IMG/VR virus record: IMGVR_UViG_2541047702_000001
Origin: a virus
Lineage: Duplodnaviria > Heunggongvirae > Uroviricota > Caudoviricetes
Strand: one strand, 5' to 3'
Length of the DNA: 36,638 bases
Shown here: piece after piece, positions 1 through 31,466 of the stretch
Layout: each line of letters begins with the position of its first letter
How positions within the stretch are numbered: position 1 is the stretch's first letter
The notes under the pieces: model-generated
Told to the model about the DNA's origin: nothing
Database searches by the model: none
The model's input: the letters and a program-made list of their open reading frames with translations, nothing else
Program-made: the position numbers and the translations under genes

Positions 1-17
1 AATCATTCCCACTCAAT
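1..17. repeat. attL core, 17-bp direct repeat AATCATTCCCACTCAAT
   Basis: Exact copy of 36622-36638. Reverse complement ATTGAGTGGGAATGATT reads I-E-W-E-stop, which I recall as the C-terminus of GMP synthase GuaA (from memory, unverified). Confidence 0.8.
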
Positions 18-104
18 TATTTACGGCATGCATAACCAATTGACTGGTAACAACTTTCTGTAACCTGATTTTCACCATACCGTTTTATATACCGTCACCG
101 GAAA

Positions 105-4602: not shown

Positions 4603-4706
4603 GTTAAATCTCCAGATAGTCGCAGCACCCGTTGCGCCGCATATCTGGTTATTCTATTACCTTAAAAACCACATATGGATAGAAAGACTGTGAATACGAA
4701 TAGATA

Positions 4707-4721
4707 TTACCTTTCGGGTAA
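4707..4721. promoter_or_regulatory. Operator-like palindrome TTACC-TTTCG-GGTAA (exact)
   Basis: Exact match to the recurring motif; lies between divergent tailspike gene and the LexA-box promoter. Confidence 0.6.
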
Positions 4722-4760
4722 TTTGCAAAACGTGCTGGATAGCAAACAAATTATTTGATA

Positions 4761-4776
4761 CTGTATAAATATACAG
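4761..4776. promoter_or_regulatory. LexA (SOS) box CTGTATAAATATACAG overlapping a promoter for the plus-strand ORF 4798-5055
   Basis: Perfect CTGT-N8-ACAG with AT-rich spacer, flanked TA...TT (TACTGTATAAATATACAGTT); possible -35 TTGATA at 4755-4760; GGAGAAG ribosome-binding site at 4786-4792. Confidence 0.75.
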
Positions 4777-4797
4777 TTATTGCATGGAGAAGATAAG

Positions 4798-5055
4798 ATG
4801 CAGCAGTATCACTATCCACTGGAAGACGGATTTACCGAAAGGATTCACACGCCGGGAGGCGTCAGGTCACTGGTGGAGGGATCGCACTTGATGAAATTAC
4901 TCCGGGATCTCGATAAGGATGGATTTAATGTCGATGGCCCACTTGCCGAACTGACTGCACTGATTAACTATGTCACCAGCTCACAGATGTCTATGCAGGA
5001 TCTGCAAACACATCTCGACTATTGTGCCGAACAATTACGAAAACAAACCCGGTAA
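4798..5055 (+). CDS. Small LexA-regulated protein, candidate SOS-inducible antirepressor (function inferred from context only)
   Basis: 85 aa, ATG 4798 with ribosome-binding site; LexA box over its promoter; followed by a bidirectional terminator; opposite in orientation to all flanking genes. Confidence 0.5.
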   Translation: MQQYHYPLEDGFTERIHTPGGVRSLVEGSHLMKLLRDLDKDGFNVDGPLAELTALINYVTSSQMSMQDLQTHLDYCAEQLRKQTR

Positions 5056-5079: not shown

Positions 5080-5087
5080 GTGACATG

Positions 5088-5384
5088 TCACGTCCCTTTT
5101 CTGAATGATAGCCATTCGAAAAATGATGACATTCCACCGCAGACAATAGCAAAGATGATCCCACCAAAGAAGAGAAGGCCAGCCTGCCACCACTCCCACC
5201 GCCATACATCCACAGCGCCAACCATACCAACAATCGCTCCAACAAATGGAATATAGCTCACGATGAAAGCAATGGGGGCTGCAATTATCCAGTGCAATCC
5301 CCACCATGATTCAAGCCCAGCCATAATTGCTGCCAACTGAAAAAGACCAACGACGATATAAACAATGAATCCTATAGCTTGCAT
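5088..5384 (-). CDS. Small integral membrane protein (about 3 TM helices), function unknown; candidate superinfection-exclusion or host-surface-modification accessory protein
   Basis: 98 aa, strongly hydrophobic; AGGTGA ribosome-binding site before ATG 5384; last gene after the ejection-protein genes. Confidence 0.55.
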   Translation of the reverse strand: MQAIGFIVYIVVGLFQLAAIMAGLESWWGLHWIIAAPIAFIVSYIPFVGAIVGMVGAVDVWRWEWWQAGLLFFGGIIFAIVCGGMSSFFEWLSFRKGT

Positions 5385-21558: not shown

Positions 21559-21637
21559 ATCAATGACTCCGTACGCAATTAAATTATTACCAATTTAACC
21601 ACATATGATTTATTTATCGTAGATAGTTGACATTTAA

Positions 21638-21652
21638 CGCACAAATTATTAC
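21638..21652. promoter_or_regulatory. Operator-like palindrome TTACC-TTTCA-GGTAA (exact), with TTGACA -35-like hexamer 17 bp upstream
   Basis: Exact motif; TTGACA at 21616-21621; lies in the intergenic region between portal-operon start and the tRNA unit. Confidence 0.55.
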
Positions 21653-21983
21653 CTTTCAGGTAAGCAAAGGGTTCATTCCGGTTATTAACCTGACTGGCTT
21701 GTCGTTAAATTGAACAGGTGGAGTGAGCTTTTATTTTGAGCAGTACGGCGTATGGCACATGCGCCGATAGCGGTCTGGATACGTTTAAGGGGCACCCTCC
21801 CTTGCTCGGGCAAACGAACCAGGTAGCCGGAATGTGCAAGCCCCGTTCATATCGTCGGACCGAGGACTCACCATCCTGGCGATTCGGTGTGACGCCTCGG
21901 AAGAGACGAGGGTACAACGATGAGAGCATTTATGGAGCCGCGACAAAGTGTGGCGCCTTAACAGGCTAAGTGCTCTCAGCGTT

Positions 21984-22060
21984 GTGGCATTAGCTCAGTT
22001 GGACAGAGCAACCGCCTTCTAAGCGGTTGGTCGCAGGTTCGAATCCTGCATGCCACGCCA
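21984..22060 (+). tRNA. tRNA-Arg, anticodon UCU (reads AGA)
   Basis: Manual cloverleaf: acceptor GTGGCAT/ATGCCAC, D-stem GCTC/GAGC, anticodon stem ACCGC/GCGGT with loop CTTCTAA, T-stem GCAGG/CCTGC with loop TTCGAAT, discriminator G and encoded CCA; 77 nt. Confidence 0.85.
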
Positions 22061-22104
22061 GAATCACGCCTAAGGACCGTGATGCCAGAAGTTCCAGGTG
22101 CTTG

Positions 22105-22146
22105 GCGGTGATAGTTTCCCTTGAAGGACTATCACCGCCCTTTTTA
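22105..22146 (+). terminator. Rho-independent terminator downstream of tRNA-Arg
   Basis: GGCGGTGATAGT ... ACTATCACCGCC perfect 12-bp stem followed by CTTTTT. Confidence 0.75.
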
Positions 22147-22223
22147 CAGCAGGACGCCATTGCGATGACTTCATGCTGTAAACCCGTACAGCCACGGAAG
22201 GCATAACTCATTGCTTCCAGTTC

Positions 22224-22247
22224 GCCCGGTTCGCCGGGCATTTTTTT
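22224..22247 (+). terminator. Terminator-like hairpin (GCCCGG-TTCG-CCGGGC then T7) ending 1 nt before the gp49-like ribosome-binding site; candidate attenuator
   Basis: 6-bp GC stem, tetraloop, 7 T; ends at 22247, AAGGTGAG follows at 22248 and ATG at 22259. Confidence 0.6.
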
Positions 22248-22258
22248 AAGGTGAGATT

Positions 22259-22633
22259 ATGAACGACCAGCAAATCGAAAAAGAAATCGTTGAGAAAGGC
22301 AAAACGGCACCGCGTGTAACACCCGAGAAAATTGAAGGCCTCATTTGCAGTGAGCATTTTTTCACTGCTGCGCAGGGTGACCACCAGGCTAAAGAAGATG
22401 ACCTTATTTATAATCCGGAGCCTTATGTCGAAGCCACCCCTGATGCTCTGCACCTTCTCACTTTCTGCGTACTGGTGCTGAAGAATGGCTTCACCGTCAC
22501 CGGAGAGAGTGCCTGTGCAAGCCCGGAAAACTTTGATGCAGAAATTGGTCGGAAGATTGCCCGGCAGAATGCTGTAAACAAAATCTGGATGCTCGAAGGT
22601 TACTTGCTGAAGCAGAAGTTAAGCGAGCAATAA
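22259..22633 (+). CDS. Gp49-like phage protein (N4 gp49 / Sf6 gp66 family, recalled), function unknown; moron-type insertion
   Basis: 124 aa; ribosome-binding site AAGGTGAG; opposite orientation to flanking structural genes; family assignment from recalled motif LTFCVLVLKNGFTVTGESACASPENFD, unverified. Confidence 0.5.
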   Translation: MNDQQIEKEIVEKGKTAPRVTPEKIEGLICSEHFFTAAQGDHQAKEDDLIYNPEPYVEATPDALHLLTFCVLVLKNGFTVTGESACASPENFDAEIGRKIARQNAVNKIWMLEGYLLKQKLSEQ

Positions 22634-22653
22634 CACCGTGGCATGTCACAAAC

Positions 22654-22680
22654 AGCCAGCCTATGAGCTGGCTTTGTTTT
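22654..22680. terminator. Intrinsic terminator AGCCAGC-CTATGA-GCTGGCT then TTGTTTT after the gp49-like gene (plus strand; weaker on minus strand after terL)
   Basis: 7-bp stem followed by T-rich tract; preceded by the palindrome variant GTGGCATGTCAC. Confidence 0.6.
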
Positions 22681-22723: not shown

Positions 22724-24199
22724 TTAAGCATAAGGGTCATAATCCGTTATGGCCCTTCCCTGCTGGCTTTGCTGTCCTGGTATATTTATGCGTTTCGAGA
22801 CCGGGAAAGCAAACGTCAGCAGTAGCGCATCGCCTTTACCAGGAGAACGCCCAAGACGCTCTTTGATATCTTCCTTCGGTTCGATAACGATTTTACCGTC
22901 CACACGAACTTTGTACTCTGCCGCCGACAGGTCGTCTGCAGTTTCCTGGTCATCCAGCATGCCGCCCAGCCTCAGCCATGTCTTACATGAGTTGAACATC
23001 TCCCCACGCTTGTTAAGCATCTGCGGGTCAGTGGACGCACCGCCGAACGGAACAAGTTGCCATGTACGTCCCCAGCCATCACCGATTGACTTCAAACCGG
23101 TTCCATAACCGAAGTCGATGAACACCGCGTCAGCCTGATACTGGTCTTCAAAGTCAGCGATACGCTTCGCCATAATCAGATCGTCGGTGGTCTTGTTACC
23201 AGTCCATAGCACCTTACTGTGCAGCCCCTGCCGCAGGTATATCACAGCGTCATCAACGCCGGAGTATGCCGGGTCAACGCCGATTATCACCGGAGCATGT
23301 GCAACCTGCGCAGCGGTTACCACCCGTTTCATTGCCTCGTCAGTAAGGCCGGTAGGGATAAACTGCAATTCAGATGCATCCGGGAATATGCCGCGCACAC
23401 GGATTTTAACGAAGTCGCTGTCTTCCCCGTAGTCATCAACCCATTTCTGCAACTGCTGTTTGTTAGTGCCTTCCACCGTCCGGCTGTCAATCTGCGCAGT
23501 TTTCCAGCGGTGTTTATATTTGCGGAAACATTCGCGGAAACGCCCGGTGTTACGTGTAGGGTTTCCGAATGCCACCCAGATAATCTCAGTGTCTTCGTCC
23601 GTCAGCGCACCCTCTGCTACCTCCCACACCAGATCGGCAATGTTGGATGCTTCATCGAATACCACGATGATACGCTTACGCTCGTTGTGCAGCCCGGCGA
23701 ACGCCTCTGTGTTGTGCTCAGACCACGGTATTGCGTCAGCTCGCCAGCGCTTGTCGTGGCCTGGGTCATTGCTGTACATCGCCGTGGCGGTGCAGGTGAA
23801 CCACTCTTTCGTGATAGCCAGATTCGACCATTTGATGATTTCCGGCCATGTCTTGGTGCGCAGCTGGTTGTCGGTGTTGGCGGTCACCACGACCTTACAA
23901 TCCTCGCAAGTGGACATGCCCCAGTTGATCAGCATTGAGATGAATGCGGATTTACCAATACCGTGACCAGAAGCGCGTGCCAGCATAAGCGGCTGATATC
24001 GCGTCTCTGGATTCTGCAGGTGATCACGTATCTCTCGGAACGCATCGGCCTGCCACTGACGTGGACCGGTGGCATGTGCCAGTTCAGTCCCCTCTTCCCC
24101 CCACGGGAACGCATAGAGGGCATAACCAAGCGGATCGTGAGTAAACCCTGCAATATCCTCGATCAACTGCTCTTCAGGAGATAACACTGTATCTGTCAC
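22724..24199 (-). CDS. Terminase large subunit
   Basis: 491 aa; P-loop-like ASGHGIGKS near the N-terminus, acidic residues typical of the nuclease half; overlaps small subunit stop; precedes portal module. Confidence 0.75.
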   Translation of the reverse strand: MTDTVLSPEEQLIEDIAGFTHDPLGYALYAFPWGEEGTELAHATGPRQWQADAFREIRDHLQNPETRYQPLMLARASGHGIGKSAFISMLINWGMSTCEDCKVVVTANTDNQLRTKTWPEIIKWSNLAITKEWFTCTATAMYSNDPGHDKRWRADAIPWSEHNTEAFAGLHNERKRIIVVFDEASNIADLVWEVAEGALTDEDTEIIWVAFGNPTRNTGRFRECFRKYKHRWKTAQIDSRTVEGTNKQQLQKWVDDYGEDSDFVKIRVRGIFPDASELQFIPTGLTDEAMKRVVTAAQVAHAPVIIGVDPAYSGVDDAVIYLRQGLHSKVLWTGNKTTDDLIMAKRIADFEDQYQADAVFIDFGYGTGLKSIGDGWGRTWQLVPFGGASTDPQMLNKRGEMFNSCKTWLRLGGMLDDQETADDLSAAEYKVRVDGKIVIEPKEDIKERLGRSPGKGDALLLTFAFPVSKRINIPGQQSQQGRAITDYDPYA

Positions 24200-24792
24200 T
24201 GATTACCATCCTGACGTTCTTTGAGTCGCTTCCTGGCTGCTGCTATGCGATCAGCAATTGTCACATTCACATTAACATCCAGGCGTTCTTTGAATGCGTT
24301 GACGTCGACGTGCTTACCAATCAGTTCGAGGTTCTTCACCTTGTCAGGCCATTTAATTTTTTTGAGGATTGTCTCTATCGAATCCTCGTTCATGTTCATG
24401 ATGGTCGATGACAGATCAAAGCCGCTAAGCGTAGTGCGCCAGATTTTCGGCCACTCGCGGATTGGCTTAAGGCTCCCATCGTCGTTGAGGATGTCGATCA
24501 CGTCCATCTGGTCGATCTCCACCAGGCGCATGAGAACGTAATCAGCACTGACGCGCATTCGTTTGTTGCGCTCCTCCATCAACTCGGCAATCCGTTTTTG
24601 AATGCGTTCATCGCGCATCATGACACTGGCTTTAACTGCCGCTGTATTTGGGGAGAATCCTGCATTAATCGCTGCCTGAGTCTGGTTTTCAGGCGTTTTG
24701 ATGTATGACTGGCAATAAGCCTCCTGCATTGCTGTGAGCGGCTTAAATTGCGTTGATTTGCGTTTATAGGTTTTAGGTTCAGCAGGCATCAT
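24196..24792 (-). CDS. Terminase small subunit
   Basis: ATGATG at 24792/24789 (ORF-track start 24870 is an upstream extension); basic N-terminus, overlaps terL start; first gene after a terminator. Confidence 0.55.
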   Translation of the reverse strand: MMPAEPKTYKRKSTQFKPLTAMQEAYCQSYIKTPENQTQAAINAGFSPNTAAVKASVMMRDERIQKRIAELMEERNKRMRVSADYVLMRLVEIDQMDVIDILNDDGSLKPIREWPKIWRTTLSGFDLSSTIMNMNEDSIETILKKIKWPDKVKNLELIGKHVDVNAFKERLDVNVNVTIADRIAAARKRLKERQDGNQ

Positions 24793-24824
24793 AACCACCG
24801 TGGTAATAGTTACCGTTGTGGTAA
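24792..24824. promoter_or_regulatory. Two tandem operator-like sites (TAACC-ACCGT-GGTAA at 24792-24806, 1 mismatch; TTACC-GTTGT-GGTAA at 24810-24824, exact) overlapping the terS initiation region
   Basis: Appears as direct repeat GTGGTAATAGT(T)ACC x2 just upstream of ATG 24792. Confidence 0.5.
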
Positions 24825-24843
24825 TAGTACCATGCAAAATAAA

Positions 24844-24861
24844 GCCGCCATAGTTGGCGGC
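24844..24861 (-). terminator. Intrinsic terminator GCCGCC-AACTAT-GGCGGC followed by TTTATTTTG on the minus strand, immediately upstream of terS (late-operon entry point)
   Basis: 6-bp GC stem, T-rich tail on minus strand. Confidence 0.55.
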
Positions 24862-24910
24862 AGTATTCAAAACACATCAAATTCATCATGCATAATCTAC
24901 TCGTGACATG

Positions 24911-25252
24911 TCACACTATTAATTTCGTTTCATGCCAGCCTTTAGTCACCCAGCATTGCGAGTCACCATTACACGGGCATGAATTCACAGGAACTCTCTC
25001 GCCGCACTTACCGCAACGTGTTCTGCTGATCGATTTTATACGCCCGTGCACGCGTGCATCATCCTGGCGGATCAGTAACGCTATATACTCACCAAATTCG
25101 TAAGGCGCACGCCCGGGGCGACGCGTGGCACAGTTACGCTCCAGCATTTCAATTTCCTGAGCATCAAGCACAATTTCCAGCTTACGCACACCAGATGCAG
25201 CTTGTCTGGCTCTCTGAGCGGCTTTGCGCTCTGCTGCTGATTTAGCCATCAA
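24911..25252 (-). CDS. Cys-rich small protein (putative zinc-binding), candidate late-gene regulator by position
   Basis: 113 aa; C-terminal CGKCGERVPVNSCPCNGDSQC cluster; stop codon lies inside palindrome GTGACATGTCAC; last gene before the terminator and terS. Confidence 0.35.
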   Translation of the reverse strand: MMAKSAAERKAAQRARQAASGVRKLEIVLDAQEIEMLERNCATRRPGRAPYEFGEYIALLIRQDDARVHGRIKSISRTRCGKCGERVPVNSCPCNGDSQCWVTKGWHETKLIV

Positions 25253-26246: not shown

Positions 26247-26978
26247 TCACTTTCCTTTGATGCGAATGCCAGCAAGCCAGTTTCTTATGCCGATATATTC
26301 AGCGTTCCTGAAACCGCTTTTTACATATATAAATGGCAAGCGAAGATTGTGACCATTGGCTGCTAGGTAGTCTTTACAACCCTGTTCGGTGAAACAGCAG
26401 GTAACGAATTCATCAATATCTTTCACAGCAACGCGCCGCCATTTTTCTGGTGGTTCCCGAAAGTTTTCATGAAGTAGTTCGAGACGACGACTTTGGAGTT
26501 TATTGGCTTCATTGCCATCTTCATCAACCCAGACAATCCGGTCATAGTCATAATCAGCATCAACAACAATTTCGCGCTTTTGATACACACAAAACATAGG
26601 GTCTGACGTTATTCGATTATCCTGTGTTCGAATATTTTCACCGATGATGCCAAACGAATCTGGTGCAGATTTTGTCTGCAACTCTGCTATGCGCTTACTT
26701 CCATCCGAGATAACACCTTCGTAATACTCGCGTTGCTCGTTGAGTTTTGATTTTGCTTCCTCAAGCTCAACGCGCAGCTTCCCTACCGTTAGCGCAATAT
26801 CTTCGTTCTCCTGGTCGCGGCGTTTGATGTATTGCTGGTTTCTTTCCCGTTCATCCAGTAGTGCCAGCACAATCGATGGTGTTACCAGCTCATGGAAAAG
26901 GTCCGCATCAAATCCCCAGTCGTCATGCATTGCCTGCTCTGCCGCCAGTCGCAGAGCCTGATAGTTAATCTTGCTCAC
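26247..26978 (-). CDS. Ead/Ea22-like family protein
   Basis: N-terminus MSKINYQALRLAAEQAMHDDWGFD resembles the conserved Ea22-like N-terminal region of lambdoid phages (recalled); coiled-coil middle. Confidence 0.45.
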   Translation of the reverse strand: MSKINYQALRLAAEQAMHDDWGFDADLFHELVTPSIVLALLDERERNQQYIKRRDQENEDIALTVGKLRVELEEAKSKLNEQREYYEGVISDGSKRIAELQTKSAPDSFGIIGENIRTQDNRITSDPMFCVYQKREIVVDADYDYDRIVWVDEDGNEANKLQSRRLELLHENFREPPEKWRRVAVKDIDEFVTCCFTEQGCKDYLAANGHNLRLPFIYVKSGFRNAEYIGIRNWLAGIRIKGK

Positions 26979-27960: not shown

Positions 27961-28305
27961 TCAGAACTCTTCGATATTCCAGCCACCACCTGCTTTCTTT
28001 GGTTTAACCGTTACCCCGATGATTCGGAACGGATACTGATCTGCGGCGACTTTGGTTTTCACCCTGGCGTCGTCGGTCCAGAAACCTTTCACTTCGTGCA
28101 GTTCCATCTCTCCGGTGGCGAGCATCACAGCGAAATCGGGCGTATAAAACGTGTTGTCAGCCAGCCGCAGCTTGATACCCTCGAACCGATACCAGGCGAC
28201 TTCCCCTGCACGTTTACGCTGCTCAAGGTGCTGGCAATACGCAGATTCTGTTTTGTTCATCTGGCCTGTTTTGAGCCGACCAAGAGCCTGTATCTGTTTT
28301 CTCAT
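27961..28305 (-). CDS. PD-(D/E)xK-motif nuclease-like protein (DUF1064-like); possible recombination/resolution nuclease
   Basis: 114 aa; motif YTPDF...ELHEVKG (D...E-x-K); preceded by two operator-like sites. Confidence 0.4.
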   Translation of the reverse strand: MRKQIQALGRLKTGQMNKTESAYCQHLEQRKRAGEVAWYRFEGIKLRLADNTFYTPDFAVMLATGEMELHEVKGFWTDDARVKTKVAADQYPFRIIGVTVKPKKAGGGWNIEEF

Positions 28306-28308
28306 GAT

Positions 28309-28385
28309 TTACCCCTTAGGTAATTAAAAACCACATAAGACATGAAATCAATAGACGTTAGAACATTTTATTACCCACTAGGTAA
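28309..28385. promoter_or_regulatory. Two exact operator-like palindromes (TTACC-CCTTA-GGTAA 28309-28323; TTACC-CACTA-GGTAA 28371-28385) 62 bp apart
   Basis: Both exact; located between P-like gene stop and nuclease gene start, the first only 4 bp from the ATG. Confidence 0.55.
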
Positions 28386-28422
28386 TTACGTGGGCGTAAA
28401 AAAATGCGCTATCGCGCTGGTA

Positions 28423-30292: not shown

Positions 30293-30307
30293 TTACCTTT
30301 GAGGTAC
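30293..30307. promoter_or_regulatory. Operator-like site TTACC-TTTGA-GGTAC (1 mismatch) downstream of the cro terminator
   Basis: Read in sequence; sits between terminator 30310-30341 and the CII-position gene. Confidence 0.4.
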
Positions 30308-30309
30308 GA

Positions 30310-30341
30310 ATAGATATGAAAAGACCGCCGGGTGGCGGTCT
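30310..30341 (-). terminator. Intrinsic terminator after the cro-like gene (tR1-like): AGACCGCC-GGGT-GGCGGTCT then TTTTCATATCT on minus strand
   Basis: 8-bp stem, T-run on minus strand. Confidence 0.6.
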
Positions 30342-30362: not shown

Positions 30363-30593
30363 TCATGAGTAGAAGAAGTATGCCAGTTCTGCTTTTGAGC
30401 GCAACCATTGTCTTGTTTTACAGGCTTTAAAAAGCCCATTCATCAATACTTTACCTGGCATTTTGCGCTTACCTGTTAAGTGAGTCTGGATATAATGACT
30501 CGTCGTTCCGGCTTCCTGTGCGAAGGCTTCACGCTCATCCGGAGTAAGTGCAAGCCAGTGCTTTTTGAAATCGAAATGTCCGTTATCGCTCAT
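30363..30593 (-). CDS. Cro-like HTH regulator
   Basis: 76 aa; HTH-like segment REAFAQEAGTTSHYIQTHLTGKRKMP; divergent from repressor gene across a three-operator region. Confidence 0.5.
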   Translation of the reverse strand: MSDNGHFDFKKHWLALTPDEREAFAQEAGTTSHYIQTHLTGKRKMPGKVLMNGLFKACKTRQWLRSKAELAYFFYS

Positions 30594-30628: not shown

Positions 30629-30691
30629 TTCACCCATAAGGTAACAAAAATCAAGGATAGTTACCTATGGGGTGCATTTACCTGTTGGGTA
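30629..30691. promoter_or_regulatory. Tripartite operator region between divergent cro-like and repressor genes: TCACC-CATAA-GGTAA (30629-30643), TTACC-TATGG-GGTGC (30660-30674), TTACC-TGTTG-GGTAA (30677-30691, exact)
   Basis: Three sites of the same palindromic family in a 147-bp AT-rich intergenic region, analogous to OR1-3. Confidence 0.6.
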
Positions 30692-30747
30692 ATATTGCTT
30701 TAAATTGAATCATCTACTGATTCATATATGAGGCGATTTTCCAGAAA

Positions 30748-31332
30748 ATGAAAAGTATCCAGGACGTCCGCAGGCAAAATCTCAACGACTTGATCGACCG
30801 TGAATTCAATGGTGTTCAGACGCGGATGGCAGAAAAACTTGGAACTCAGGCAAATCTGGTAAACCGCTGGGCTCTTGGCAAGAAGGTTATCGGCGACCAG
30901 GTTGCGCGAAAAATTGAAGCTGCCGCCAATAAACCCCGTAACTGGCTTGATATCGATCGCTCGCTTTCTCAGGAAGGTTTTCAGCCTGTCGGCCCAAGCG
31001 ACATTGGTCAGCTGGCGGCTCACAACCTGGAACGCTGGATGAGCGAAAGCCGCGACCTTTCAACACAGGGAAAACTTCACCGCGCATCCGGCGTCGCCCA
31101 GGTGACAATCAGCCGCCTGTTAAACAATGAGGTCAGCGTTTCCATTTCCACCCTGGAGAATGTTGCATCCGCATTCGGGCGTCACGGCTATGAATTACTG
31201 ATTCACCCGCACGACCCTGCGACCATCAACTATGACCGCTCGCGCTACGCATTGTTACCCGAAACCGAGAAAGCAAAGATCGAAAGTTACATTGAATTTG
31301 TCATCAACCAGAACGAAAAAAACAAACAATAA
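30748..31332 (+). CDS. Prophage repressor (CI-position) with two tandem XRE-type HTH domains and no recognisable S24 peptidase domain
   Basis: 194 aa; two HTH-like segments (about residues 20-70 and 95-150); C-terminus lacks Ser/Lys peptidase motifs; followed by terminator and a second operator cluster; weak ribosome-binding site (possibly leaderless-like). Confidence 0.6.
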   Translation: MKSIQDVRRQNLNDLIDREFNGVQTRMAEKLGTQANLVNRWALGKKVIGDQVARKIEAAANKPRNWLDIDRSLSQEGFQPVGPSDIGQLAAHNLERWMSESRDLSTQGKLHRASGVAQVTISRLLNNEVSVSISTLENVASAFGRHGYELLIHPHDPATINYDRSRYALLPETEKAKIESYIEFVINQNEKNKQ

Positions 31333-31389: not shown

Positions 31390-31466
31390 TTACCTTAAGG
31401 GTAATTTTTTTAACTCATATCTATTGACACCAAACCAAATACGCATAATTATTACCTCAACGGTAA
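31390..31466. promoter_or_regulatory. Early-left promoter/operator region: exact operators TTACC-TTAAG-GGTAA (31390-31404) and TTACC-TCAAC-GGTAA (31452-31466), with TTGACA -35 at 31424-31429
   Basis: The second operator overlaps the predicted -10 (TAATTAT about 31446-31452). Confidence 0.6.

What the first reader, a model, noticed from the sequence alone, without database searches (positions are those of the whole stretch)
24792..24916. Late-operon entry: terminator plus tandem operators over the terS start, downstream of a Cys-rich small gene
Going leftward, the early operon ends with the 113-aa Cys-rich protein, then the palindrome, then an intrinsic terminator (24844-24861), then two tandem operator-like sites that overlap the terS Shine-Dalgarno/ATG region. 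This resembles a lambda tR-prime/Q-type checkpoint with an additional repressor lock on terminase expression. The GTGGTAATAGT direct repeat could alternatively be part of a pac/terminase recognition region.
Basis: partly seen in the sequence, partly recalled or inferred. Interest (0 to 1): 0.5.

Follow-up and report, generated by a model that had tools for sequence, protein, structure and literature searches.

The report
Repressor-locked late promoter behind a terminator
In this phiV10/epsilon15-like prophage the early genes end at a transcription terminator and the DNA-packaging genes start behind two binding sites for the prophage's own repressor, an arrangement already annotated in the type phage, so the finding is real but ordinary; the small Cys-rich gene next to it is not a lambda-Q-type factor but a DNA binder tied to a separate palindrome.

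Summary
On the - strand, in order: the 113-aa gene (24911..25252); the palindrome GTGACATGTCAC (24903-24914); an intrinsic terminator (24861-24836, -13.8 kcal/mol); then two tandem sites over the terS ribosome-binding site and ATG.

The "GTGGTAATAGT direct repeat" is really two 15-bp dyads, TTACC-N5-GGTAA (24810-24824 perfect; 24792-24806 one mismatch). The perfect dyad occurs 8 times in the window (0.02 expected), including the cro/repressor intergenic region. The epsilon15 GenBank record labels the homologous terS-proximal site "repressor" and the hairpin "rho-independent terminator". The window's repressor is homologous to SPC32H Rep (PDB 5D50).

Across 28 distinct relatives an invariant TG-n-TA-nn-AT abuts dyad 1. 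That is an extended -10 with the same geometry as the strong early-left promoter.

Best reading: the terminator insulates the late operon, which has its own repressor-blocked promoter.

The Q-type idea is not supported. The 113-aa protein has no Q-family match and a ribbon-helix-helix core, and its homologs sit in non-late contexts (N15 has its own Q-like gene). The pac idea is rejected because the motif is multi-copy.

New side result: GTGAC-NN-GTCAC lies at the stop codon of this gene family in 181 of 189 loci.

The parts
24911..25252 (-). Last gene of the early-right unit: a 113-aa protein of phrog_536 (N15 gp46 / epsilon15 gp49 family). Predicted ribbon-helix-helix core plus a C-terminal 4-Cys motif.
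24903..24914 (.). 12-bp perfect palindrome GTGACATGTCAC with the gene's TGA stop inside its left arm. Probable binding site of the 113-aa protein.
   Evidence: The sequence is. GTGAC-NN-GTCAC lies within -3..+7 nt of the homolog's stop codon in 181 of 189 loci of three protein lineages, with only 4 other copies in 800 kb. It has other genomic copies next to terminators.
24862..24887 (-). Relic of the 3' end of another gene (GATGAATTTGATGTGTTTTGAATACT, ...DEFDxx*). It is a recombination scar, not a regulatory spacer.
   Evidence: In L165-, L122- and L007-type relatives the same sequence is the C-terminal coding end of an extra gene that lies between the 113-aa gene and the terminator.
24836..24861 (-). 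Intrinsic terminator closing the early-right transcription unit. The stem is 24861-24844 and the U-tract is 24843-24836.
   Evidence: Found by the scan. Folding energy is -13.8 kcal/mol, z = -4.2. It is conserved with an invariant stem in most relatives. It is annotated as a rho-independent terminator in epsilon15 and phiV10.
24824..24832 (-). Putative extended -10 element TGgTACTAT of a late promoter. The inferred start site is about 24817.
   Evidence: TG-n-TA-nn-AT is invariant in 28 distinct upstream sequences, while hexamer positions 3 and 4 vary: TACTAT, TAGTAT, TATTAT, TACCAT, TACAAT. The -10/operator geometry is the same as at the 10-of-12 promoter at 31424-31452. No -35 is present. 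Promoter function is inferred.
24810..24824 (.). Operator dyad 1, TTACC-ACAAC-GGTAA (perfect). It overlaps the last base of the -10 and the predicted start site.
   Evidence: It is homologous to the epsilon15 feature 'protein_bind repressor' at 12..27.
24792..24806 (.). Operator dyad 2, TTACC-ACGGT-GGTTA (one mismatch), 18 bp from dyad 1. It covers the Shine-Dalgarno GGTGG (24799-24795) and the first ATG.
   Evidence: It is conserved as a one-mismatch dyad in all relatives; the mismatch is in the right arm in the window type and in the left arm in the epsilon15 type. It is not annotated in epsilon15.
24196..24792 (-). terS, the small terminase (SPP1/SF6 G1P family) and first gene of the late operon. 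Annotated relatives start at the second ATG, 24789.
   Evidence: Pfam PF03592 at 1e-29. The protein is 100% identical in phiV10, typing phages 9 and 10, ZX5 and TL-2011b.
30748..31332 (+). Prophage repressor gene (Rep). The protein is presumed to bind the dyads.
   Evidence: It matches the SPC32H Repressor chain 5D50_A at E = 4e-42 over residues 1-190.
30630..30692 (.). Three dyads in the cro/Rep intergenic region (30630, 30661, 30678). This is the reference operator set that defines the motif.
   Evidence: The predicted rightward promoter TTGTTA-17-TATTAT spans the dyad at 30630.

Best explanation
This is the junction between the early-right unit and the packaging/morphogenesis unit of a Uetakevirus prophage.

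Transcription arriving from the replication/nin-like genes stops at the intrinsic terminator (24861-24836). The late unit has its own promoter directly behind the terminator: an extended -10 (TGgTACTAT, 24832-24824) with no recognisable -35.

Two adjacent 15-bp dyads, TTACC-N5-GGTAA, begin at the last base of that -10 and run to the terS start codon. They are operators for the prophage repressor, an SPC32H-Rep-type protein encoded at 30748..31332. In a lysogen, bound repressor covers the -10, the start site and the 5' leader. That blocks initiation and also blocks any polymerase that leaks through the terminator. When the repressor is inactivated, the site opens together with the other operator-controlled units of the phage.

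Shown here: the sequence features, their conservation, the identity of the dyads with the immunity-region motif, and the presence of a Rep homolog.

Inferred: that Rep binds here, that the TG-n-TA-nn-AT element is a working promoter, and that the terminator is efficient.

The 113-aa protein is not needed for this scheme. It is a separate ribbon-helix-helix-type DNA binder whose likely site is the palindrome at its own stop codon.
For: 1. Motif statistics. The perfect dyad occurs 8 times in the window against 0.02 expected. Further sites have one or two mismatches. Three lie between cro and the repressor gene, and two flank a 10-of-12 sigma-70 promoter just downstream of the repressor gene.
2. 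Prior annotation. The epsilon15 record labels seven such sites 'protein_bind repressor/lysogeny', one of them 20 nt upstream of terS, and marks a rho-independent terminator after gp49. phiV10 also marks that terminator.
3. Repressor. The window's repressor matches SPC32H Rep 5D50 at E = 4e-42.
4. Linkage to terS. The block TG-n-TA-nn-ATTACC-N5-GGTAA...TTAC-N6-GGT travels with terS. It is kept in 28 distinct sequences from Escherichia, Salmonella, Citrobacter, Klebsiella, Erwinia, Kluyvera and others. It is kept where the upstream gene differs and where the terminator is absent.
5. Promoter signature. TG and TA..AT are invariant while hexamer positions 3 and 4 vary, as expected of a -10. The -10/operator register equals that of the promoter at 31424-31452.
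6. Terminator quality: -13.8 kcal/mol, z = -4.2.
7. Recurrence. The same 'terminator, then dyad(s), then gene' layout recurs after cro and after the P-like gene.
8. Expression data. Repressor overexpression in the near-identical phage ZX5 cut holin and endolysin transcripts by more than 99.9% (PMC9782041).
Against: - No binding, transcript-end or start-site data exist for this site. The epsilon15 'repressor' features carry no evidence qualifier in the record, and I could not read the paper, so I take them as sequence-based predictions.
- The putative promoter has no -35 and only a 4-of-6 hexamer, so it may be weak or need an unidentified activator.
- The final AT of the hexamer is also part of the operator flank, so only TG-n-TA is independent evidence for a promoter.
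- Nothing identified here explains late timing.
- Cro might bind the same dyads.
- Operators before the other late segments do not show the TG-n-TA-nn-AT register.
Confidence: 0.62

Rival explanations
1. Read-through checkpoint. There is no late promoter here. Late genes are transcribed from the early-right promoter, and a phage factor lets polymerase pass the terminator. That factor could be the 113-aa protein acting at its palindrome. The dyads then act only as a repressor roadblock in lysogens.
For: - The palindrome is tightly linked to the 113-aa gene.
- In Uetakeviruses every copy lies beside a terminator on the path of late-strand transcription.
- Vibrio K233 has a copy 30 nt upstream of terS.
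- The gene is the last early gene, which is the Q position.
- The putative late promoter is weak on paper.
Against: - There is no match to any Q or N family.
- The fold is ribbon-helix-helix, a class known from established knowledge mainly as repressors.
- Homologs with their palindrome occur in N15, which has its own Q-like gp40 and PR'-like promoter/terminator, and in P2-like phages and Chlobot with no terminator or late gene nearby.
- Palindrome-to-terminator spacing is 41 nt here and 22 nt in epsilon15. In L007-type phages a whole gene lies between them, and the 26 nt upstream of the terminator (24887-24862) are a gene relic.
- Five lineages have no terminator.
Confidence: 0.17
2. RNA-level control. 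The tandem dyads matter mainly as RNA. In transcripts that read through the terminator they fold into a long hairpin that buries the terS Shine-Dalgarno and AUG. Only RNA started inside the hairpin, or RNA that is processed, is translated.
For: RNA from 24835 to 24786 folds to -15.4 kcal/mol (z = -2.6) and pairs the SD and AUG. RNA from the inferred start site (24817) folds only to -5.7 kcal/mol (z = -0.6). The whole region has z = -4.0.
Against: Any pair of adjacent DNA dyads gives such a hairpin, so the fold is expected as a by-product. There is no covariation independent of the operator consensus. The same dyads occur at 10 or more other places with no start codon involved.
Confidence: 0.1
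3. Packaging site. The GTGGTAATAGT repeats are small-terminase recognition elements of a pac site, like SPP1 pacL.
For: terS belongs to the SPP1/SF6 G1P family. The relative Tyrion is reported as circularly permuted with terminal redundancy, i.e. headful packaging (PMC5754475). The repeats travel with terS. Several deposited genomes are opened just upstream.
Against: The motif is the multi-copy operator, with 8 perfect and at least 4 near-perfect copies spread over the genome. A packaging start needs to be unique. Record starts differ between phages (window positions 24910, 24890 and 24871 by my arithmetic), which fits a convention of opening genomes before terS rather than mapped ends.
Confidence: 0.04

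Closest known systems
Salmonella phage epsilon15 (NC_004775.2): annotated 'repressor' binding sites and the rho-independent terminator at the gp49/terS junction
   Same: The locus is homologous. It has a gp49 homolog, the GTGACATGTCAC palindrome, a terminator, the ATTACC-N5-GGTAAT site 20 nt before terS, and the same dyad at the immunity region and at other unit starts.
   Different: The window is phiV10-type (98.7% identical to O157 typing phages 9 and 10). It carries a 26-nt gene relic between palindrome and terminator. The second dyad, the TG-extended -10 and the palindrome are not annotated in epsilon15. The epsilon15 sites carry no evidence qualifier and I take them as predictions.
Salmonella phage SPC32H Rep/Ant switch (PDB 5D50, 5D4Z)
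   Same: The repressor is homologous (E = 4e-42). The window also has a LexA box in front of a small gene in the position of epsilon15 gp19, which I take to be the Ant homolog. A later paper summarises Rep as binding palindromic DNA as a tetramer (PMC9638917). That would suit paired dyads.
   Different: I could not read the primary papers. I therefore do not know whether binding at the terS-proximal site was ever tested.
Lambda Q / PR' / tR' late-gene antitermination module
   Same: It shares the position of a small regulator gene as the last early gene, followed by a terminator in front of the late genes.
   Different: There is no Q-family protein and no conserved promoter with a Q-binding element ahead of the terminator. 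The terminator is dispensable in some lineages. The repressor acts directly at the late genes, which lambda does not do (established knowledge of lambda).
Multi-operator prophage repressors (P1 C1; N15 CB; mycobacteriophage L5 gp71 'stoperators'), recalled from established knowledge
   Same: One repressor has many sites spread over the prophage, including sites in front of late or structural genes.
   Different: Here the sites are symmetric 15-bp dyads in intergenic regions, often in pairs 18 or 62 bp apart. They are not asymmetric, orientation-dependent sites inside transcribed regions.
P22 Arc/Mnt, CopG and other ribbon-helix-helix regulators
   Same: The modelled core of the 113-aa protein superposes on RHH domains (PutA, TraM, NikR, CopG, MazE, AmrZ, Arc). 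It has a short palindromic candidate site.
SPP1 pac (pacL/pacC/pacR) recognised by G1P
   Same: The small-terminase family is the same, and there are repeats at the 5' edge of terS.
   Different: The repeats here are copies of a genome-wide operator, not a unique site.

Membership tests
Lambda-type Q antitermination module | A Q-family antiterminator protein is encoded just upstream | tested here: not met
   The 113-aa protein has no Pfam or NCBIfam match. Its model core resembles RHH domains. No N or Q family was found in any other early gene scanned.
Lambda-type Q antitermination module | A constitutive promoter with a Q-binding element lies immediately before the terminator | tested here: not met
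   The only match is a 9-of-12 promoter-like site, GTGACA-18-CATGAT at 24914-24885. The sequence between palindrome and terminator is unrelated in epsilon15-type relatives, and in the window it is partly a gene relic.
Lambda-type Q antitermination module | A terminator lies between the regulator gene and the late genes | tested here: met
   The hairpin plus U-tract is at 24861-24836. It is absent in five lineages.
Lambda-type Q antitermination module | The regulator gene is consistently linked to late or lysis genes | tested here: not met
   Homologs lie in the N15 early operon (N15 has a separate Q-like gp40), after gpA in P2-like Yersinia phages, and beside recombination and integrase genes in Chlobot.
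Operator of the prophage repressor (epsilon15 gp38 / SPC32H Rep type) | The sequence matches the dyad found in the repressor/cro intergenic region | tested here: met
   TTACC-N5-GGTAA is perfect at 24810 and has one mismatch at 24792. The same dyad is at 30630, 30661 and 30678. There are 8 perfect copies against 0.02 expected.
Operator of the prophage repressor (epsilon15 gp38 / SPC32H Rep type) | The cognate repressor is encoded in the same element | tested here: met
   The protein of window 30748..31332 matches 5D50_A at E = 4e-42.
Operator of the prophage repressor (epsilon15 gp38 / SPC32H Rep type) | The site overlaps promoter elements or the start site of the controlled unit | tested here: inconclusive
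   A conserved TG-n-TA-nn-AT abuts dyad 1 in the same register as at the 31424-31452 promoter. There is no -35 and there are no transcript data.
Operator of the prophage repressor (epsilon15 gp38 / SPC32H Rep type) | The repressor physically binds the site | not testable with these tools
   This needs EMSA, footprinting or ChIP.
Intrinsic (rho-independent) terminator | A G+C-rich hairpin is followed directly by a U-run on the transcribed strand | tested here: met
   The stem has 7 bp (6 G-C), the loop is 4 nt, and the tail is UUUAUUUU. Folding energy is -13.8 kcal/mol, z = -4.2. The reverse strand has no T-run.
Intrinsic (rho-independent) terminator | The stem is supported by compensatory changes | tested here: inconclusive
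   The stem is invariant in nearly all relatives (one G-to-U wobble in L167). Only the loop and tail vary.
pac site of an SPP1-type headful phage | The recognition sequence is unique, or nearly so, in the genome | tested here: not met
   The motif is present at 12 or more sites.
pac site of an SPP1-type headful phage | The first packaging cut maps to the site | not testable with these tools
   No virion-end data are available. Tyrion is reported as circularly permuted.
Ribbon-helix-helix regulators (for the 113-aa protein) | A beta-alpha-alpha core fold | tested here: inconclusive
Ribbon-helix-helix regulators (for the 113-aa protein) | A short symmetric or repeated DNA site is genetically linked to the gene | tested here: met
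   GTGAC-NN-GTCAC lies at the stop codon in 181 of 189 loci of three lineages. The arms are invariant and the centre is lineage-specific.

The most novel reading that the evidence does not exclude
The 113-aa ribbon-helix-helix/zinc protein (N15 gp46 / epsilon15 gp49 family, with no described function that I could find) and the palindrome GTGAC-NN-GTCAC embedded in its own stop codon form a conserved protein-site module. The module would act at the ends of transcription units.

The protein would bind the palindrome and stall or modify polymerase there. That could limit its own synthesis through transcripts that lack a stop codon, in the way reported for LacI at O3 (recalled from established knowledge). 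In Uetakeviruses it could also set how much transcription crosses the three terminator-flanked boundaries, including the early-to-late junction of this finding.

If so, the palindrome rather than the operators would be the real early/late checkpoint.
Probability: 0.2. Interest if true: 0.6.

Novelty: already known. Interest (0 to 1): 0.28.

Why it matters
It shows how this phage group keeps its packaging, structural and lysis genes silent in a lysogen. Each transcription unit, the late one included, sits behind a terminator and carries the repressor's own operators. There is no single early-to-late antitermination switch of the lambda kind. This matters for engineering phiV10-type reporter phages and for predicting what a repressor or antirepressor change will unleash. 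For this locus it is confirmation of an existing annotation, not a discovery.

The linkage between the 113-aa gene family and a palindrome at its stop codon is the only part that might be new. It gives a directly testable binding site for a widespread phage protein of unknown function.

Tried and rejected
- pac hypothesis: rejected, because the repeat is the multi-copy operator.
- Promoter at the palindrome (GTGACA-18-CATGAT): not conserved in relatives.
- Mini-ORF MHDEFDVF between palindrome and terminator as a leader peptide: rejected. It is the relic of another gene's 3' end.
- Covariation test of operator against repressor using epsilon15 (repressor reported as 42% identical): uninformative, because epsilon15 uses the same dyad core.
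- First AF2 model from a shallow alignment: pLDDT 65, unusable. A second alignment with Yersinia- and Serratia-type homologs gave pLDDT 78.
- Literature: the primary papers on epsilon15, phiV10 and SPC32H Rep are not held. No paper in the library contains the palindrome sequences in a phage context. No transcriptome of this genus was found.
- CRP or LexA identity of the palindrome: rejected on spacing (my reading of the sequence against the known consensus sites).
- The search for related loci with the mixed alignment returned only close relatives. Separate queries with the N15 and Yersinia proteins were needed.
Full report
**What the window is.** The region is 98.7% identical over 901 bases to E. 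coli O157 typing phages 9 and 10, and closely related to phiV10, TL-2011b, ZX5 and PAS61. These are Uetakeviruses, the epsilon15 group. The lytic genes lie on the - strand. terS (24196..24792) is a Terminase_2 protein, E = 1e-29, and terL follows at 22724..24199. Upstream lie accessory early genes: DUF1064, Ead/Ea22, DUF551 and an ASCH-like gene. Further upstream are the lambda-P-like and DnaT-like replication genes, a cro-like gene at 30363..30593, and the divergent repressor gene at 30748..31332.

**Checking the observation.** Reading the - strand, the features appear in this order:
- The 113-aa ORF ends at TGA 24913-24911.
- The perfect palindrome GTGACATGTCAC spans 24914-24903.
- A hairpin GCCGCCAACTATGGCGGC (24861-24844) is followed by TTTATTTT. 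It folds to -13.8 kcal/mol, z = -4.2.
- The sequence then reads GCATGGTACTATTACCACAACGGTAACTATTACCACGGTGGTTATGATG, which ends in the terS start codons.

**What the repeats are.** The direct repeat is the visible part of two 15-bp dyads, TTACC-N5-GGTAA. One is at 24810-24824 (perfect) and the other at 24792-24806 (one mismatch), 18 bp apart.
- The perfect dyad occurs eight times in the 36.6-kb window, against 0.02 expected from shuffles. Four more sites have one mismatch.
- Three dyads fill the cro/repressor intergenic region (30630, 30661, 30678).
- Two flank a 10-of-12 sigma-70 promoter (TTGACA-17-AATTAT, 31424-31452) just downstream of the repressor gene. That promoter points into the RecT/exonuclease operon.
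- This is the layout expected of the operators of the prophage repressor.
- The epsilon15 GenBank record says the same. It carries seven 'protein_bind: repressor, lysogeny' features with the core ATTACC-N5-GGTAAT. One of them is at 12..27, 20 nt before terS. It also carries a 'rho-independent terminator' at 39646..39672 after gp49, the 113-aa homolog. phiV10 also flags that terminator.
- The window's repressor matches the SPC32H Repressor chain 5D50_A at E = 4e-42.
- A later paper summarises SPC32H Rep as binding palindromic sites as a tetramer. That would fit paired dyads. I could not read the primary papers.

**Comparative anatomy.** I collected terS loci from 80 bacterial species and Uetakevirus contigs from IMG/VR. 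I then compared 54 distinct upstream sequences, of which 28 are distinct in the last 68 nt.
- The block from TG-n-TA-nn-ATTACC through dyad 2 to the ATG travels with terS, whatever lies upstream.
- It is kept where a different gene precedes it (L007, L013, L165 types).
- It is kept in five lineages that have no terminator at all (L008, L138, L139, L140, L163).
- Within the block, TG, TA, ATTACC and GTAA are invariant.
- The hexamer reads TACTAT, TAGTAT, TATTAT, TACCAT or TACAAT. That is TAnnAT preceded by TGn, the signature of an extended -10.
- Its register to dyad 1 (the last T of the hexamer is the first T of TTACC) equals the register at the strong promoter at 31424-31452.
- I therefore infer a late promoter at 24832-24824 with a start near 24817. 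No transcript data support this.
- Dyad 2 is always a one-mismatch dyad. Its spacer and right arm contain the Shine-Dalgarno GGTGG.
- The terminator stem is almost invariant, so there is no covariation evidence for or against it.

**The wider pattern.** The same 'terminator, then dyad(s), then gene start' layout recurs on the lytic strand.
- After cro: the terminator is at 30341-30322 and the dyad at 30293.
- After the P-like gene: dyads lie at 28371 and 28309, and the second ends three bases before the DUF1064 start.
- epsilon15 has dyads in front of the portal operon and the tailspike gene (annotated), and in front of the lysis cassette (24704, found by my scan).
- No N- or Q-type antiterminator family was found in any early gene scanned.
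- The phage therefore looks like a chain of short units, each insulated by a terminator and each carrying the repressor's operators. The locus in this finding is the unit that opens the packaging genes.
- Overexpressing the repressor of the near-identical phage ZX5 reduced holin and endolysin transcripts by more than 99.9%. That is consistent but not specific to this site.

**The Q-type idea.** The evidence does not support it.
- The 113-aa protein belongs to phrog_536, labelled 'transcriptional regulator'. It has no Pfam, NCBIfam or PDB sequence match above noise.
- Four cysteines (C80, C83, C92, C100) are invariant.
- Homologs sit in the N15 early operon (gp46), while N15 has a separate Q-like gp40 and a PR'-like promoter/terminator. 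Others sit after gpA in P2-like Yersinia phages and beside recombination genes in Chlobot.
- The only promoter-like match ahead of the terminator is not conserved.
- The 26 nt at 24887-24862 are the relic of the 3' end of another gene, which in L165- and L007-type relatives lies between the 113-aa gene and the terminator.
- Together with the terminator-less lineages, this leaves little room for a lambda-like Q/qut/tR' module.

**The pac idea.** terS is of the SPP1/SF6 family, and Tyrion is reported as circularly permuted. A pac site near terS is therefore plausible. The repeat itself is the multi-copy operator and cannot be the unique recognition site. The differing record starts of phiV10, Tyrion and E15 look like the convention of opening genomes before terS.

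**RNA-level reading.** RNA running from the terminator to the start codon can fold into a -15.4 kcal/mol hairpin (z = -2.6) that pairs the SD and AUG. RNA from the inferred start site folds only to -5.7 kcal/mol. This could make read-through RNA poorly translatable. Any two adjacent dyads produce such a fold, and nothing independent supports it.

**Side result: the palindrome.** GTGACATGTCAC occurs at three homologous places in epsilon15 and two in phiV10, where the record breaks at the third. In the window it occurs at 24903 and 5080, with a one-mismatch copy at 22638. Each copy lies beside a terminator at the end of a transcription unit.
- Four unrelated phages that encode a homolog of the 113-aa protein each carry a GTGAC-NN-GTCAC palindrome. 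It lies at or within 7 nt of the homolog's stop codon in Chlobot, N15 and the Yersinia phage. In Vibrio K233 the nearest copy is 226 nt downstream, and a second lies 30 nt before terS.
- Over 189 loci from three protein lineages (32-40% identical to each other), 181 have the palindrome within -3..+7 nt of the stop. Usually TGA is embedded as G-TGA-C. Only 4 other copies exist in 800 kb.
- The arms are invariant and the centre is lineage-specific: AT, TG or GC.
- A homolog with a 26-residue C-terminal extension still has the palindrome right after its new stop (L012).
- N15 has three copies: at the gp46 stop, in the intergenic region between genes 32 and 33, which I recall as the immA (anti-repressor) control region, and inside repA.
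- Exceptions exist: L016, L270 and L139.
- Invariant arms with a free centre point to a dimeric DNA-binding protein rather than an RNA hairpin. The gene-site linkage points to the 113-aa protein itself.
- What binding achieves is open: roadblock, insulation, autoregulation or terminator modulation.
- I found no paper containing these sequences in a phage context.

**Verdict.** The terminator and the repressor lock are supported and were already annotated in the type phage. The Q-like role of the Cys-rich protein and the pac alternative are not supported. The locus is an ordinary, already-annotated feature of a well-sequenced phage group. The palindrome/113-aa linkage is the only lead worth a separate look.

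Noticed in passing
window 24903-24914, 5080-5091, 22638-22649; L086 2142, 19517, 39612; L273 (N15) 28550, 33237, 39269; L002-L005: The palindrome GTGAC-NN-GTCAC is genetically linked to the 113-aa gene family. It lies at the stop codon in 181 of 189 loci of three lineages. Its extra copies in Uetakeviruses sit beside terminators at unit boundaries. The protein models as a ribbon-helix-helix fold with a 4-Cys tail.
   Followed up: yes
window 4655-5055: A LexA box TACTGTATAAATATACAGTT (4759-4778) lies directly before a small + strand ORF (about 4799..5055, in the position of epsilon15 gp19). It is preceded by a repressor dyad (4707) and a half-site (4655). This looks like the SPC32H-type LexA-controlled antirepressor.
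   Followed up: partly
window 21585-22673: A + strand insert lies between terL and the portal gene. It contains a TTGACA promoter flanked by TATTACC (21585) and a perfect dyad (21649), then tRNA-Arg(TCT) at 21984-22060, then an N4 gp49 / Sf6 gp66-family gene at 22259..22633. It ends in a one-mismatch palindrome plus a terminator.
   Followed up: partly
window 4666, 21596, 28328, 31432: The motif AAACCACATA (with variants) recurs next to operators. Operator pairs are spaced 62 bp apart (28309/28371, 31390/31452, 21585/21647; epsilon15 32555/32617, 35907/35969). The count of the motif alone is not significant (5 found, 2.4 expected).
   Followed up: no
window 30293-30341 and 28305-28400: The layout 'terminator, then repressor dyad(s), then gene start' recurs after cro and after the lambda-P-like gene. 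The lytic strand therefore seems cut into separately repressed units.
   Followed up: partly
window 24862-24887: A 26-nt relic of the 3' end of another gene (...DEFDxx*) lies between palindrome and terminator. The intact gene sits at this position in L165-, L122- and L007-type relatives. This marks a recombination junction right after the palindrome.
   Followed up: yes
window 36474-36488: A one-mismatch repressor dyad lies just upstream of the integrase gene (35181..36431, - strand). epsilon15 has the counterpart at 26882.
   Followed up: no
L015 (Pseudomonas lundensis) 1886; L016 (Samsonia erythrinae) 2417: A perfect TTACC-N5-GGTAA dyad lies upstream of terS in loci whose terS is only 66-67% identical (38 nt before the terS match in L015, about 12 nt before the start codon in L016). 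L016 keeps a 113-aa homolog but has no palindrome at its stop and no terminator.
   Followed up: no
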